Assembly (NCBI RefSeq): GCF_037042905.1
Contig: NC_087250.1
Coordinates: 21,888,001 to 21,952,000 of the forward strand
DNA from: Lytechinus pictus
Taxonomy: Eukaryota
Direction: 5' to 3'
Length of the DNA: 64,000 bases
Under the pieces are notes generated by a model, which had not been told where the DNA came from, searched no databases, and saw nothing but the letters and a program-made list of their open reading frames with translations. Each line of letters begins with the position of its first letter. The stretch's first letter is position 1. Positions 2,445-64,000 of this stretch are shown in pieces. The position numbers were made by a program, and so were the translations under genes.

Positions 2445-15842
<13,398 letters not shown>

Positions 15843-37300: not shown

Positions 37301-40300
37301 AAAAAAGTTCAATATCTGCTCTTTAATTTGATACCTCTATTACAGAAAATGGTCAAGAAATAACAAAGTTCTGGTAATTTGAAATAAGGCTTGAATTTTA
37401 ATAATTTCATAAAATTAAGAGGTTCTACAGGCTAGCGTTCAAACTCACTTGACACTCCGTTTTGTTGACGATCAGCCATGCATTAAGTCTTTTGTTAACC
37501 ATGTGATAGCTTCTGTGGGGAACCGGTGAAAACACGTTTATTTAATGAAATTATGGAAATACAAGCATTGCTTCGAGGGAACAGAACTTTTTTACTTCTT
37601 GACCATTTTTTGTAATTAAGGTATCAAATAAAAGAGCAGATATTGAACTTTTTAGGCATGTGATTTTCATTTTGAAATTCAGATACGCCCCGCCAAATGA
37701 GTTTTTGGTATCCTTTCTTCAAATTGTTTGTGCTCACTCATGCGTGAATGGGGAATAATCTAAGCAATATCGGATGAAAGAGGAGATTCTAAGCTTTACA
37801 TTTGTAGGCCATTTGTCTATTGTATTTGTGATTAAGTTATGATAAATCATCGCCTAATCTCGGTTTCGTTTTTTTCTGGGACGCACTGTATATCCTCTAT
37901 TTCTTTCAAAAGATTTCTTTTCGCTTAATTATTTTCTTTCTTTTTGCGTGCACAGTATTCTATACGTGTACCCGTAATTGTACATTTAAGAGAGTCCCAT
38001 AACATATTGGGGTTACAATCACATGCAGAATGAATTGATTTAAACTCTTCAATTTTCTCTTTAACACTTTCGATAAAATTTACATCATTGTGCAAGTACT
38101 TGCAATTCAGTTTCCAGAAGCTTGGACCCCTTACTGGTTGAGCGTCTTTACATTTTAGAATAAGAGAATGATCAGATTGAATTCCTGGAACTATTTTAGA
38201 TTGCACACAATTAGTGAAAAAATTATCTGAAACAAGAATGATATCAAGTCTTGATAAAACTTCAGGGGATTTTTGATGCCTCGTATACTGCTTAAGGTTT
38301 TGGTGAAAATTACGCCAGATATCACAAAGATTAAACTCTTCTATCAATAATAATAACATTTCACTTGCTTTGTTGTTTGAATGGGTGACCTTACCCCCTT
38401 GATAGTCCAGAGGCCCTAAAGCCGCATTAAAATCGTCAGCACAAATCATTGAAGTGTAATTAAATTGTTCTACCTTATTAAAAACTTGAAAAAAAAAAGT
38501 CAGGGTCATCATTATTCAGACCCCGAGGGGCACCCCATTTTTGCAGATATTATCAGGTATCACCCATTAGGTTCAGAGTAAAGTGATTCTATTTCAAAGG
38601 ATACATGGTTCCGGATCAAAATGGCTACCCCTCGACAATTTGATGCATAGTTAGAGAACCATGCTTTTTCACCCCATTGCTGTTTCCAAAATATATCATC
38701 TGCTTTTAACGAGTGGGTTTCTTGAAGAAAAATAATGTCACTTTGGATGGATCTTAAATAATGAAACACTTTGCGTCTTTTCACATAATCTTGAATCCCT
38801 CGACAATTAAAAGTACATAATTTTAGATCCATAATTCTAGGGTGGGGCATAATAGTGAAATATTATAACCATTAAACAAGATCTTACAGAATATAGGGAT
38901 AACAGAATTGCATGAAACAAGATGACTGTCAACATACAAATAAACGTTTCATTGGGGGTATAATATCATTTTGAAGCTGCATGAGATCGTAAACTGTGGT
39001 AGAAAGAAAAATTGACATGATTAGAAGAAAAAAAAAAGCAAAAAGATAAAAACAAAAAATTGCAAAGCTAACAAACAAGAGCACGCTGGTGCACAAGATA
39101 TCACAGCTCAGGGCTTCAAATAAAAAAAAAAACAGCCCAAGCCAAAAGTGCAAAAAACAAACGCAAACCATGAATCAAGCCAAAATTCACACCAAAATGT
39201 TCATGAACAGTGAACCATTTGTTTTTCTACAGTTTTGAAACATGAATTAAAAGAAATAGATATTAAATCGGTGCAAAAGTGATGAATTGATGGACCTTAC
39301 CCACAAAACAGAATAAAAAAGTTAAATGATAAATGTTAATAAATTTTTGGAACCTTCTCCTTGTTCCTTCCCTCCCTTAAAAAAAAAATAACAGTACCAA
39401 AATCCACAATGTAGGGATATGGCATACCATAAAAAGGGGTAGACGATCCTCTCATATACATGTATACACTGCCAGGTAACAAATAAATCAACATTTAAAC
39501 AACACTGTAACATATCCAATGCATACCATTCATGTTGCAGTTACAATATACCTTGTCTTAGATACATGTAACACATTTCCATTGATCAGTTTGTTTTTAT
39601 GACCCCCTAATAAAAACTAAACAAGAACAATATAATCTAATCCACAATGTAGGGATATGGCGTACCATAAAAAAGGGGTAGAATAGCAAAATCCCCAAAG
39701 TAGGGATATTTCATAAATAAAAAGGGTTGAAAAATCCTCTCATACACTGCCAGGTACACTGTAACAAATAAATAACCGTTTAAGCAACACTGCAACAAAT
39801 GCATACACGAAAACTGAGGTGAACGATACGTTATATGATTTGATATCTCCCCTGGGAGGTCTGCGATCTACCTCTCTCTCGTAATATCTTTAACTGACTT
39901 TTTACACCTTAATTTAATTGAAAACATTCCATACCCCCATTCTTTTACGCCTGTTTTTCACTTTTTTTAGTGATTTGTTAATAGTTGATTACCATATTTG
40001 TCTGAAACCCTATGTTAGTTTACTAATGTAATTTACTAATATATATTCTTTAAAAAGTAGCTGCAATTTCCCTATTTATTGCATCTTCTGTTATACCTTT
40101 CGTTTCAGTATACTTTTGTATACTTTGAATTTTGTCTTTCCCTGAACATATCCAGTTTATCATATTAATGTTATGACTATACAATACCCTTGTGTTTCTT
40201 GTGATAAACCAGTTAAAAATAATCAAAGAGGACTACAATGTACACATTGTCTTGTTTGGATGCACTCGTCGTGCGCGGGAGTTAAAAATGAGCTATATGA

Positions 40301-62907: not shown

Positions 62908-63200
62908 TCGGAACCGAGATTTATCGATGATTTGTCAAAATTTAATCACAAATACAATAGGCAAATGACCTATCATTGTAAAAACTGAGAGTCTCTTCTT
63001 TTCATTTGAAATAACTTAGATTATTTATCATTCATACATGAGTGACCAAAATTAATTTGAAGAAAGGAAACCAAAAAGTCACTTGGCGGGCGGTATCTGA
63101 GTTTCAAAATATAAATCACATTTTTAAAAAGTTCAATATCTGCTCTTTAATATGATACCTTAATTACAGAAAGCGGTCAAGAAGTAACAAAGTTCTGTTT
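62908..63200. mobile_element. Single arm of the Tc1-like foldback MITE family
   Basis: Collinear with about 37085-37375. Confidence 0.8.
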
Positions 63201-63487
63201 ATATGAAAATTCAAATTCAATTATACTCATTCAATAATACTCATCAAAAAATCCGAAGACTAACAATGTGAGTTTACATTTAAAAAAAACGTAAGAGAGA
63301 AATGAATAAATAAACATGCAGTGACCATTAAAGAAGAGAACAAATATATATTATGTTTAAAATGCAATAGTAGCATAACAAGAAATTGGATAAGCAGATG
63401 CAAGTAATGAGACAGATTTAATTTATATATTAAAAGAAAGCAGGTGAGGAGCAGGAAAGGGGAGCAAGCAGGGCAATAGTAAGCATG

Positions 63488-63656
63488 CACTGTAAAAAAA
63501 AAATAAGGCGCCAACCCAGCACCCACAGCGCCCGTACAGCGACTGCACCACGAGTGCCGATCTTCAGTGTAAATTCAAAATAGAAAATCAGCACCCGTAG
63601 CGCAGCCACCACACAAGCACTGTAAGTGCCAAATTAGCACCTCATCTCATACAGTG
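63488..63656. mobile_element. Copy of the 5711-5863 palindromic MITE family carrying clustered T>C substitutions
   Basis: cactgtaaaa ... tacagtg termini with tg/tg flanks; aligns along its length to 5711-5863. Confidence 0.85.
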
Positions 63657-64000
63657 TGTGTAAAGGTGAGAAAGGAGAGGGGGATGTAGCAAAAATAAAG
63701 GAAAGAGGGGGAAAAGGAATGAAGGAGCACAACAAAAAAGACCCACAAGTAAACAATAAATTACAGATATTACAAATATTATAAGAATTATTTGTACCAA
63801 AAAAAAACAGAAAAGAAAGTGACATGTTGGTGATCATAAAAGACGAGAGAGTGGGAAAGAGCAAAAGGAAGATAGAGAGAGAGAGGGAGAAAGAGAGAAA
63901 GAGAGAATTAGAAAGATCAGACAGAATCTGAAAAATGACATATCTAATCATAAGTAAACAAGATATTACAAACAAAAAAGGGTAAGCATCAATTATGATT

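What the first reader, a model, noticed from the sequence alone, without database searches (positions are those of the whole stretch)
63488..63656. Genomic MITE with an ADAR-like hyper-editing signature (strand-specific T>C in both arms of a hairpin)
Seen: against the palindromic consensus taken from the sister copy at 5711-5863, the left arm gtgctaatttagcacttacagtgcttgtatagtgactgcactacgagtgctgatttt reads gcgccaacccagcacccacagcgcccgtacagcgactgcaccacgagtgccgatctt. That is 15 changes in 57 nt, all T>C. The right arm has another 6-8 T>C on the same strand (cactcgtagtgcagtcactatac becomes cacccgtagcgcagccaccacac). The changes are not compensatory, so they break the hairpin, and they run opposite to CpG decay. 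Established: ADAR converts many A to I on both sides of long dsRNA stems, and reverse transcriptase copies I as G. Inference: a minus-strand transcript containing this DNA-transposon hairpin was hyper-edited, reverse transcribed and integrated, fixing RNA edits in germline DNA. The flanks (63260-64000) are U-rich on the minus strand, like a 3'UTR or the L1 inter-ORF spacer at 38880-39400, so a retroelement or retrocopy carrier is plausible.
Basis: partly seen in the sequence, partly recalled or inferred. Interest (0 to 1): 0.88.

Follow-up and report, generated by a model that had tools for sequence, protein, structure and literature searches.

The report
RNA-edited transposon hairpin fixed in DNA
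A small hairpin-shaped DNA transposon sitting inside a retroelement carries about 25 one-directional base changes that look like RNA editing written back into the genome when the retroelement copied itself through RNA.

Summary
Window 63488-63656 is a copy of a 166-bp, near-perfectly palindromic MITE. Against the family consensus it carries 25 T>C among 31 substitutions: 25 of 53 T sites changed, against 1 of 54 A sites. Contigs from public sequencing runs hold the same C alleles, so it is not an assembly error.

The copy lies in a ~0.97-kb dispersed, retroposon-like repeat whose inferred sense strand is the window's minus strand, where the changes read A>G. At least eight other copies of that repeat have the empty site.

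At least 12 hypermutated copies exist, in four unrelated carriers. Two carriers are LINEs with reverse-transcriptase or endonuclease ORFs. Three carriers have several copies with different 5' ends that share the mutated MITE. In all four, A>G lies on the carrier's sense strand.

Best reading (0.7): the MITE inserted into retroelements, their RNA formed an ~80-bp hairpin, an ADAR-type enzyme hyper-edited it, and reverse transcription fixed the edits.

Weak points:
- No 5'-G depletion is visible.
- No RNA data were available.
- The window's carrier has no RT ORF and no sibling copy with the MITE.
- The four groups share many C sites, which I attribute to preferred editing sites.

The parts
63488..63656 (-). 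Hypermutated copy of a 166-bp palindromic MITE. It has 25 T>C on the plus strand, which read as A>G on the minus strand, the inferred RNA strand.
63486..63487 (.). Left copy of the 2-bp target-site duplication (TG) of the MITE insertion.
   Evidence: Empty-site paralogues L077 and L078 have a single TG. In eight other copies the left-flank and right-flank matches overlap by 2 bp.
63657..63658 (.). Right copy of the TG target-site duplication.
63209..63487 (-). 3' part (in minus-strand sense) of the carrier, a ~0.97-kb dispersed, purine-rich (plus strand), retroposon-like repeat. On the minus strand it ends in ...ATTGAATTTGAATTT.
   Evidence: 130 first-look candidates, and the 36 non-local copies scored are 78-86% identical. 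All 36 non-local copies scored stop at 63487. The tail is shown.
63657..64000 (-). 5' part (in minus-strand sense) of the same carrier. It runs on to about window-equivalent position 64273, beyond the window. It is about 65 nt shorter at that end than paralogues L077 and L078.
63203..63208 (.). Target of the carrier's own insertion into another repeat (TE-X). ATGAA is repeated at the far junction, at about L054:4270, outside the window.
   Evidence: by comparison with three uninterrupted TE-X copies. The duplication is short, so this is suggestive only.
62909..63208 (.). Left part of TE-X, the ~730-bp dispersed repeat into which the carrier inserted. It shows no T>C excess (0 of 17 substitutions).
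63020..64000 (+). Start of a tandem array of ~2.4-kb units, C6:21951020-21961610. The array holds four copies of carrier plus mutated MITE, 96-99% alike. Three of them lie beyond the window's end.
5711..5863 (.). Ordinary, unedited copy of the same MITE, with a 13-bp central deletion, inserted in a (CTTT)n microsatellite.

Best explanation
A cut-and-paste MITE (166 bp, an almost perfect palindrome, usually with a TA duplication) inserted into a retroelement. When that retroelement was transcribed, the MITE folded into an ~80-bp perfect RNA hairpin. An ADAR-type deaminase converted close to half of the adenosines on that one RNA strand to inosine. The retroelement's reverse transcription read inosine as G, so the new DNA copy carries A>G on the retroelement's sense strand. 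For the window copy that is T>C on the plus strand. The retro-copy landed in another repeat and was later tandemly duplicated four times. The same thing happened at least three more times with other retroelements in this genome.

Shown: the mutation spectrum, its confinement to the MITE, the MITE insertion with empty sites, the retroelement nature of two carriers, the transmission of mutated MITEs to copies with different 5' ends, and the polarity.

Inferred: the enzyme, the RNA passage of this particular locus, and that the shared sites are editing hot spots.
For: 1. Spectrum. 25 T>C of 31 substitutions; 25 of 53 T sites against 1 of 54 A sites. Other hypermutated copies show 20-25 changes of the one type.

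2. Confinement to the hairpin. Within the element, the termini (0 of 20 site-by-group cells) and the AT-rich centre (7 of 48) are spared, while the stems carry 54 of 72 and 37 of 72. I summed these by hand from the table.

3. The minus-strand RNA keeps the stem through G-U pairs, as A-to-I on that strand predicts.

4. The MITE is a true insertion in each carrier.
- Window carrier: single TG in L077 and L078, and eight copies with adjoining flanks.
- C17 carrier: 5 empty sites.
- C8b carrier: 1 empty site.

5. The carriers are retroelements.
- L031:123-1508 (+) is RVT_1, E = 6e-35.
- L030:3-1022 (-) is Exo_endo_phos, E = 1e-11, and 'endonuclease-reverse transcriptase', E = 2e-9.
- Window carrier: a common left end; 130 first-look candidates for the left 279 bp against 30 for the right 311 bp; 5 copies cut short on the right; a (TTGAAT)2 tail resembling the (CTTGAAT)2 tail of the C17 LINE; and a 5-bp duplication around it.

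6. The mutated MITE was passed on with the carrier.
- C17 clade: three LINE copies with different 5' ends (long; cut ~75 nt upstream of the MITE; cut inside the MITE).
- C8a clade: L028/L029 plus L087, with 16 A>G, and two short remnants, all sharing the 3' flank.
- C8b clade: L030 plus a copy on C5 cut inside the MITE.

7. Polarity. A>G is on the carrier's sense strand in 4 of 4 carriers. Chance would give 1 in 16.

8. Further editing. Over consensus positions 1-126, 10-11 of the 13-14 differences between the two C8b copies are T/C at consensus-T sites, in both directions. I counted these by hand from the rows printed.

9. The genome encodes the ADAR/ADAT deaminase domain PF02137 at four loci.

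10. The C alleles are present in contigs of public runs.
Against: - No depletion of G 5' of the edited A. Edited cells are 10 of 24 at 5'-G sites, against 32 of 68 (5' U), 30 of 68 (5' A) and 26 of 52 (5' C). Two of the six 5'-G sites are changed in all four groups. Porath et al. 2017 (PMC5625713, passages read) report strong upstream-G depletion across Metazoa. Power is low with 6 sites (Fisher p = 1.0).
- The four groups share more sites than chance: 14-19, against about 11 expected. 12 sites are changed in all four groups. This also fits descent from one mutated copy.
- The window's carrier shows no RT or EN ORF. A longer paralogue has none within 3 kb. Its strand is inferred from copy-end statistics and a short tail motif.
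- No other copy of the window's carrier holds the MITE. All 36 non-local copies scored, of 50 first-look candidates, stop at the junction. So no source or sibling is known for this locus.
- In the C17 clade only 3 of 11 differences between L031 and L043 are T/C at consensus-T sites, so not every passage adds many edits.
- No RNA evidence for editing exists.
Confidence: 0.7

Rival explanations
1. One hypermutation event, of whatever cause, produced a mutated MITE. That copy then spread as DNA through the family's transposase. The window copy is such a DNA-level insertion into an old repeat and never passed through RNA at this locus.
For: - Each group has precise MITE ends and its own 2-bp duplication.
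- The terminal 12 nt and last 8 nt stay close to consensus in most copies, so a transposase could probably still act.
- 12 sites are shared by all four groups, and the window and C8a copies share 19.
- The 2-of-4 site patterns mostly fit a tree ((W,C8a),(C8b,C17)): 5 fit and 3 conflict.
- Changes private to the C8a group include 3 A>G and 0 T>C.
- No sibling carrier with the MITE exists for the window locus.
Against: - It needs chance to put A>G on the carrier's sense strand four times (1 in 16), or three times (1 in 8) if the first case is granted.
- It needs every known copy to land in a retroelement that was copied afterwards.
- Most of the nine sites changed in 3 of 4 groups would need C>T reversions outside CpG.
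- No substitution other than T>C is shared between groups, apart from one CpG-type G>A.
- The central asymmetry marker (positions 80 and 87) points one way in C8b and C17, and probably the other way in C8a.
- It leaves the founding event unexplained.
Confidence: 0.17
2. The changes were made in place on DNA. One candidate is ADAR acting on the DNA strand of an RNA:DNA hybrid (R-loop) at the transcribed MITE. Another is an error-prone polymerase patch across the palindrome.
For: - ADARs can deaminate deoxyadenosine in DNA/RNA hybrids in vitro (Zheng et al. 2017, PMC5389660, abstract read).
- A change made in place would explain why the window locus has no source copy.
Against: - In an R-loop the hybrid contains the template strand, so edits would read T>C on the carrier's sense strand. 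The observed polarity is the opposite in 4 of 4 carriers.
- Mutated MITEs are shared by retro-copies with different 5' ends, so the changes travelled with the RNA-derived copies.
- A polymerase patch would not spare the centre and termini of the element.
Confidence: 0.05
3. This is ordinary sequence drift, CpG decay, GC-biased gene conversion, or an assembly or base-calling artefact at a hairpin.
For: Hairpins are error-prone in some sequencing chemistries. Many of the changes are TG>CG, so CpG is involved.
Against: - Direction is fixed by the palindrome. The T state restores 164 of 166 self-complementary positions.
- CpG decay runs the other way, and most changed sites are not in CpG context.
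- Gene conversion would raise A>G as much as T>C, yet the counts are 1 against 25.
- The same alleles occur in four tandem copies, in other loci on both strands, and in contigs of public runs from three organism labels.
- 0 of 555 control alignments are similarly skewed.
Confidence: 0.02

Closest known systems
Hyper-edited inverted-repeat RNAs in animals (ADAR clusters of A-to-G in long dsRNA; Porath et al. 2017, PMC5625713, passages read; Porath et al. 2014, PMC4365171, search listing only)
   Same: One mismatch type on one strand, dense clusters, a substrate that is a long intramolecular duplex formed by repeats, and ADAR-domain genes present in the genome.
   Different: Those are RNA-versus-DNA differences. 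Here the changes are in genomic DNA. The upstream-G depletion reported for all Metazoa is not visible here.
Deaminase footprints fixed in endogenous retroelements: APOBEC3 G-to-A clusters (Zaranek et al. 2010, PMC2873906, passages read), and ADAR editing of retrotransposons (Knisbacher and Levanon 2015, seen only as a title in a reference list; not readable)
   Same: An editing enzyme acts during the retroelement's copying cycle, and the edit is inherited by the new DNA copy as a strand-specific cluster.
   Different: The edited substrate here is a nested DNA transposon (MITE) that supplies the duplex, not the retroelement's own sequence. The change is A-to-G on the sense strand, not G-to-A. 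[quoted passage not shown]
Biased A-to-G (U-to-C) hypermutation of RNA-virus and retrovirus genomes attributed to ADAR (recalled from memory; no call)
   Same: About half of the adenosines of a duplex region changed on one strand, and the change inherited by progeny.
   Different: That concerns viral genomes. This is a cellular LINE or retroposon carrying a transposon hairpin, in the germline.
Stowaway-like / Tc1-mariner-type MITEs (family label recalled; its features tested here)
   Same: Short, non-coding, with terminal inverted repeats that here extend over the whole element. The duplication is TA/TA in 13 of 16 ordinary copies (my reading of the alignment). Copy number is in the hundreds to thousands (1095 first-look candidates). 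Empty sites were found.
   Different: The hypermutated copies no longer fold as DNA or plus-strand RNA. No autonomous partner was sought.

Membership tests
ADAR-type A-to-I hyper-editing footprint | A single mismatch type (A>G) on one strand, in a dense cluster | tested here: met
   25 T>C of 31 substitutions; 25 of 53 T sites against 1 of 54 A sites, p = 1e-8. Other copies carry 16-25 changes of the one type.
ADAR-type A-to-I hyper-editing footprint | Confined to a long double-stranded RNA region | tested here: met
   The consensus folds as an ~80-bp perfect stem, -139.7 kcal/mol. Flanks and neighbouring repeats show no skew. 0 of 555 control alignments are skewed.
ADAR-type A-to-I hyper-editing footprint | Up to about half of the adenosines of a perfect duplex edited (this figure is recalled from the in-vitro literature, not from a call) | tested here: met
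   20-25 of 53 sites per full-length copy, or 38-47%.
ADAR-type A-to-I hyper-editing footprint | Depletion of G immediately 5' of the edited A (Porath 2017) | tested here: inconclusive
   Edited cells are 10 of 24 at 5'-G sites against 88 of 188 at other sites. For sites changed in at least 3 groups it is 2 of 6 against 19 of 47, Fisher p = 1.0. No depletion is seen, but only six such sites exist.
ADAR-type A-to-I hyper-editing footprint | The organism has ADAR genes | tested here: met
   PF02137 (A_deamin) scores above its cut-off at four loci; the 14 prokaryote control genomes give none. I did not check for dsRNA-binding domains, so ADAR and ADAT1 are not told apart.
ADAR-type A-to-I hyper-editing footprint | RNA from the locus or family shows A-to-G against DNA | not testable with these tools
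   No RNA run was available to lay on the locus.
LINE-driven retro-copy (the carrier) | Reverse transcriptase or endonuclease ORF in the carrier family | tested here: inconclusive
   Met for the C17 carrier (RVT_1) and the C8b carrier (Exo_endo_phos). Not met for the window's carrier: no such ORF within 3 kb of a longer paralogue. It would have to be a non-autonomous element. Not examined for C8a.
LINE-driven retro-copy (the carrier) | Common 3' end with variable 5' truncation among copies | tested here: met
   Window carrier. C17: 36 of 40 hits end at query position 670 while starts range from 1 to 337 (some starts are due to a masked (CT)n tract), and three MITE-bearing copies have different 5' ends. 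C8a. C8b.
LINE-driven retro-copy (the carrier) | Edits on the sense (RNA) strand of the carrier | tested here: met
   4 of 4 carriers. For the window and C8a carriers the sense strand is itself inferred from truncation patterns.
LINE-driven retro-copy (the carrier) | Target-site duplication around the carrier and a 3' tail | tested here: inconclusive
   Window carrier: a 5-bp ATGAA repeat at both junctions with TE-X and a (TTGAAT)2 tail. Both are short. Not examined for the other carriers.
TA-duplicating MITE (Tc1/mariner-type, Stowaway-like) | Terminal inverted repeats, a 2-bp duplication, no coding capacity, many copies, empty sites | tested here: met
TA-duplicating MITE (Tc1/mariner-type, Stowaway-like) | An autonomous partner with matching ends and a DDE transposase | not tested
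   Not searched.

The most novel reading that the evidence does not exclude
Nested DNA-transposon hairpins act as built-in reporters of RNA passage. In this animal, every MITE that is copied along with a LINE or LINE-dependent element is hyper-edited to near saturation at reproducible sites, and edited again in later cycles. ADAR would then be a recurrent germline mutator that dismantles perfect hairpins in active retroelement transcripts. The 12 always-edited and 17 never-edited sites would be a natural in-vivo map of ADAR selectivity on one defined 80-bp duplex.
Probability: 0.35. Interest if true: 0.75.

Novelty: new variant of a known kind. Interest (0 to 1): 0.62.

Why it matters
RNA editing is usually seen as leaving the genome untouched. 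Here at least four independent cases in one genome suggest that edits made on RNA became heritable DNA changes, because the edited RNA was a retroelement's copying intermediate. The substrate is unusual: a DNA transposon that only meets RNA biology because it is nested in a retroelement.

If this holds, it gives three things:
- A simple genomic signature for telling which nested repeats have passed through RNA.
- A natural record of editing-site choice on a defined hairpin, replicated four times.
- A concrete example of ADAR shaping repeat evolution. A 2016 review (PMC4982230) still called this undetermined for Alu.

My searches of the held literature found no report of hyper-edited MITEs fixed in DNA. 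One likely relevant paper (Knisbacher and Levanon 2015) could not be read.

Tried and rejected
All genome-wide statements rest on the genome search, which scores only 40 candidates per DNA query, and on two pattern scans.
- The pattern scans found 9 and 10 hypermutated copies, with none in their reversed-pattern controls. They missed two copies found later through flanks (C5:46.82M; C9:15.63M). The total of 12 is therefore a lower bound.
- My first reading was a DNA-level mutated subfamily with the retrocopy idea refuted. It rested, where high-copy repeats crowded out the carrier's paralogues. Dedicated flank searches overturned it.
- Search for an unedited source copy of the window's carrier holding the MITE: none among the 36 non-local copies scored, of 50 first-look candidates.
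- Similarity between the 3' regions of the window's carrier and the C17 LINE: alignment score 52, against a shuffle mean of 51.7. Nothing beyond the short TTGAAT tail.
- Central orientation marker (positions 80 and 87) as a test of one origin against several: ambiguous for the window copy, weak for C8a.
- Sequencing runs: no RNA holder listed. All holders have small word shares (0.15 or less). Parts of the stretch without contig cover say nothing. A single X2 contig joins 63467 to 63704 with only 30 letters on its shorter side; I give it no weight.
- Earlier findings of this scan: three look-ups returned nothing.
- Rejected on the evidence given under rival explanations: CpG decay, GC-biased gene conversion, wobble-tolerant selection on an RNA stem (it would also give G>A on the plus strand; 0-1 are seen), and derivation of the palindromic family from a C-rich ancestor (arm copying cannot produce the consensus).

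Full report
**1. What is at 63488-63656**

The stretch is one complete copy of a short repeat. A search of the window's own genome (812 Mb, 368 contigs) with the sister copy at 5711-5863 gave 1095 first-look candidates.

Sixteen 166-bp copies align almost without differences. Their majority consensus is self-complementary at 164 of 166 positions. It begins CACTG and ends CAGTG. By my reading of the alignment, it is flanked by TA on both sides in 13 of 16 copies. It is therefore a miniature inverted-repeat transposable element (MITE) of the TA-duplicating kind. As RNA it would fold into an ~80-bp perfect stem (-139.7 kcal/mol). The copy at 5711 is an ordinary member with a 13-bp central deletion.

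**2.

- Against the consensus, the window copy has 25 T>C, six other substitutions and five indel columns.
- 25 of 53 T sites changed, against 1 of 54 A sites (p = 1e-8).
- Thirty-six ordinary copies average 2.7 substitutions and none has more than 2 T>C. They were the best-scoring hits and so are biased towards young copies.
- The direction of change is certain, because only the T state restores the palindrome.
- The skew stops at the element's ends. Two other repeat pieces in the same tandem unit show 0 of 17 and 2 of 10 T>C. The carrier flanks show 3 of 80.
- The changes ruin the plus-strand hairpin (-43.6 kcal/mol). The minus-strand RNA still pairs through G-U (-112.5 kcal/mol), as expected if A became I (read as G) on the minus strand.

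**3. Not an artefact**

- Three more copies with the same alleles lie just beyond the window's end, in a tandem array of ~2.4-kb units.
- A contig of public run X1 covers 63439-63624 with two differences, neither at a C allele.
- Contigs of X2 and X7, filed under another organism label and in two studies, cover 63535-63750 and 63535-63686 at about 93-94% identity. No difference is listed at any of the 15 T>C sites there, and they carry the same right flank.
- X1 may be the assembly's own sample.

**4. Other hypermutated copies**

Searching with the window copy found further copies with 20-25 changes of the one type, on either genomic strand, with unrelated flanks:
- C8:25.60 Mb and 25.68 Mb, a segmental pair (called C8a here).
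- C8:3.54 Mb (C8b).
- C17:23.68 Mb together with C8:30.10 Mb (C17 clade).

Two pattern scans found only these plus one more, on C15. Two older or truncated copies turned up later through flanks. There are thus at least 12 copies, and the scans are not exhaustive.

Oriented so that the changes read T>C, the four groups share 14-19 of their 20-25 sites. About 11 would be expected by chance. Of the 53 T sites, 12 are changed in all four groups, 9 in three, 8 in two, 7 in one and 17 in none.

For a while I read the set as a DNA-level subfamily.

**5. The flanks change the picture**

Dedicated searches with the sequence next to the MITE show that the window's flanks are themselves a dispersed repeat.
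- The 279 bp to the left has 130 first-look candidates. The 36 non-local copies scored are 78-86% identical.
- The first 617 bp to the right behaves likewise.
- In eight loci the left and right matches abut with a 2-bp overlap.
- Aligned paralogues L077 and L078 show a single TG where the window has TG-MITE-TG.

So the MITE is a clean insertion into one copy of a ~0.97-kb carrier.

Features of that carrier:
- All copies share the left end. On the minus strand it reads ...ATTGAATTTGAATTT.
- The right-hand 311 bp has only 30 candidates, and five copies break off part-way.
- The window's copy is ~65 nt shorter on the right than L077 and L078.
- It sits in another repeat (TE-X) between two ATGAA.

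These are the marks of a LINE-dependent retroposon whose sense strand is the window's minus strand, the strand on which the MITE changes read A>G.

Limits:
- No RT ORF lies within 3 kb of a longer copy.
- The tail motif is short.
- None of the 36 other carrier copies scored has the MITE.

**6. The other three contexts**

*C17 clade*
- L031 has a 461-codon open frame on its plus strand that is a reverse transcriptase (RVT_1, E = 6e-35).
- The MITE lies at the end of that frame. About 670 bp further on, the element ends in CTTGAATCTTGAAT.
- Five other copies of this LINE have the empty site, with a single TG.
- Three copies carry the same hypermutated MITE with different 5' ends: one long, one cut ~75 nt upstream of the MITE, one cut inside it.
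- On L031's plus strand the changes are A>G (21).

*C8b clade*
- L030 has an endonuclease ORF of LINE type on its minus strand.
- The MITE lies ~10 nt from the LINE's 5' end.
- A copy on C20 has the empty site, and a copy on C5 is cut inside the mutated MITE.
- The changes are T>C on L030's plus strand (25), so A>G on the LINE's sense strand.

*C8a clade*
- L028 and L029 carry 23 A>G on the plus strand.
- A copy on C9 (16 A>G) and two short remnants share the 3' flank and break off at different points within the MITE. This is again a 5'-truncation series, with sense on the plus strand.

In all four carriers A>G lies on the sense strand, which chance would give 1 time in 16. In three of them the mutated MITE was handed on to copies made through RNA.

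**7. Mechanism**

The simplest account has five steps:
1. A MITE inserts into a retroelement.
2. The retroelement's transcript contains a perfect hairpin.
3. An adenosine deaminase acting on double-stranded RNA converts 38-47% of the adenosines of that strand to inosine.
4. Reverse transcription reads inosine as G.
5. The new copy carries the changes.

Supporting points:
- The genome encodes the ADAR/ADAT deaminase domain at four loci.
- The pattern within the element suits a duplex-dependent enzyme. From the table, summed by hand, the termini have 0 of 20 cells changed, the AT-rich centre 7 of 48, and the stems 54 of 72 and 37 of 72.
- Over consensus positions 1-126, 10-11 of the 13-14 differences between the two C8b copies are T/C at consensus-T sites, in both directions (hand count). 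This suggests more editing in later cycles. In the C17 clade the figure is only 3 of 11.

Alternatives made in place:
- An R-loop model, with ADAR acting on the DNA strand of a hybrid (possible in vitro; PMC5389660, abstract read), predicts the opposite polarity.
- A polymerase patch would not spare the centre.

On this reading, the sites shared between groups are preferred sites of one and the same hairpin.

**8. What speaks against it**

- The hallmark depletion of G 5' of edited sites (PMC5625713, passages read) is not seen: 10 of 24 cells at 5'-G sites against 88 of 188 elsewhere. Two of the six such sites are changed in all four groups. Six sites give little power, but the expected trend is absent.
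- The 3' neighbour order (G 0.59, C 0.52, A 0.40, U 0.31) is only loosely ADAR-like.
- The sharing of sites also fits descent from one mutated copy that moved as DNA. The window and C8a copies are the most alike, with 19 shared sites. For the window locus alone, which has no sibling, that history cannot be excluded. I give it about one chance in six overall, and more for this locus taken by itself.
- No RNA data could be brought to bear.

**9. Comparison with what is known**

- Editing footprints fixed in retroelement DNA are established for APOBEC3, as G-to-A clusters (PMC2873906, passages read).
[quoted passage not shown] I saw it only in a reference list and could not read it.
- A 2016 review says that the role of ADAR in Alu subfamily evolution was undetermined (PMC4982230, passage read).
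- Hypermutation of viral genomes by ADAR is recalled from memory.
- My four literature searches found no report of a DNA transposon hairpin, nested in LINEs, fixed in hyper-edited form.

I therefore class this as a new variant of a known kind.

**10. Verdict**

Confidence in the mechanism is 0.7. Interest is 0.62: a clean, replicated natural example that makes ADAR-driven germline mutation of repeats directly testable, though not a new principle.

Noticed in passing
window 5500-6035: The ordinary MITE copy at 5711-5863 sits in the middle of a ~500-bp (CTTT)n microsatellite that continues on both sides. Its flanks there are not TA.
   Followed up: no
window 6050-6100: A tRNA-like stretch (gtggtagagcgc...) directly follows the microsatellite. 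It may be the head of a tRNA-derived SINE.
   Followed up: no
L054:4766-5464 (just beyond the window's end): A ~700-bp repeat inside the tandem unit is 94-98% identical to the other genomic copies scored. The query that contained it drew 2405 first-look candidates. This looks like a young, very abundant element of unknown class.
   Followed up: partly
window 62909-63208 and L054:4274-4749: TE-X, the repeat interrupted by the carrier, contains ~280-bp inverted segments about 78% alike (a foldback type). It would also form double-stranded RNA if transcribed, yet the part tested shows no T>C or A>G excess.
   Followed up: partly
L076 + L084 (C15:13845750-13846400): The C15 copy of the mutated MITE has a ~170-bp insertion inside the MITE whose two ends are inverted copies of each other.
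   Followed up: no
L028:1962-2186: A ~225-bp repeat at 95-97% identity to the 38 other genomic copies scored (1043 first-look candidates for the query). It lies 300 bp downstream of the C8a MITE and is probably a young SINE.
   Followed up: no
G000 C3:52.51 Mb, C6:3.39 Mb, C2:27.52 Mb, C2:34.50 Mb: Four loci encode the ADAR/ADAT deaminase domain. The C2:34.50 Mb locus has several in-frame stops and may be a pseudogene.
   Followed up: no
window 63488-63656: The T>C changes raise the CpG count from 2 in the consensus to 8 in this copy. Several other copies show CG>CA at such new CpGs (for example consensus positions 53-54 in L028 and L031). This could be used to date the events if methylation is known.
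   Followed up: partly
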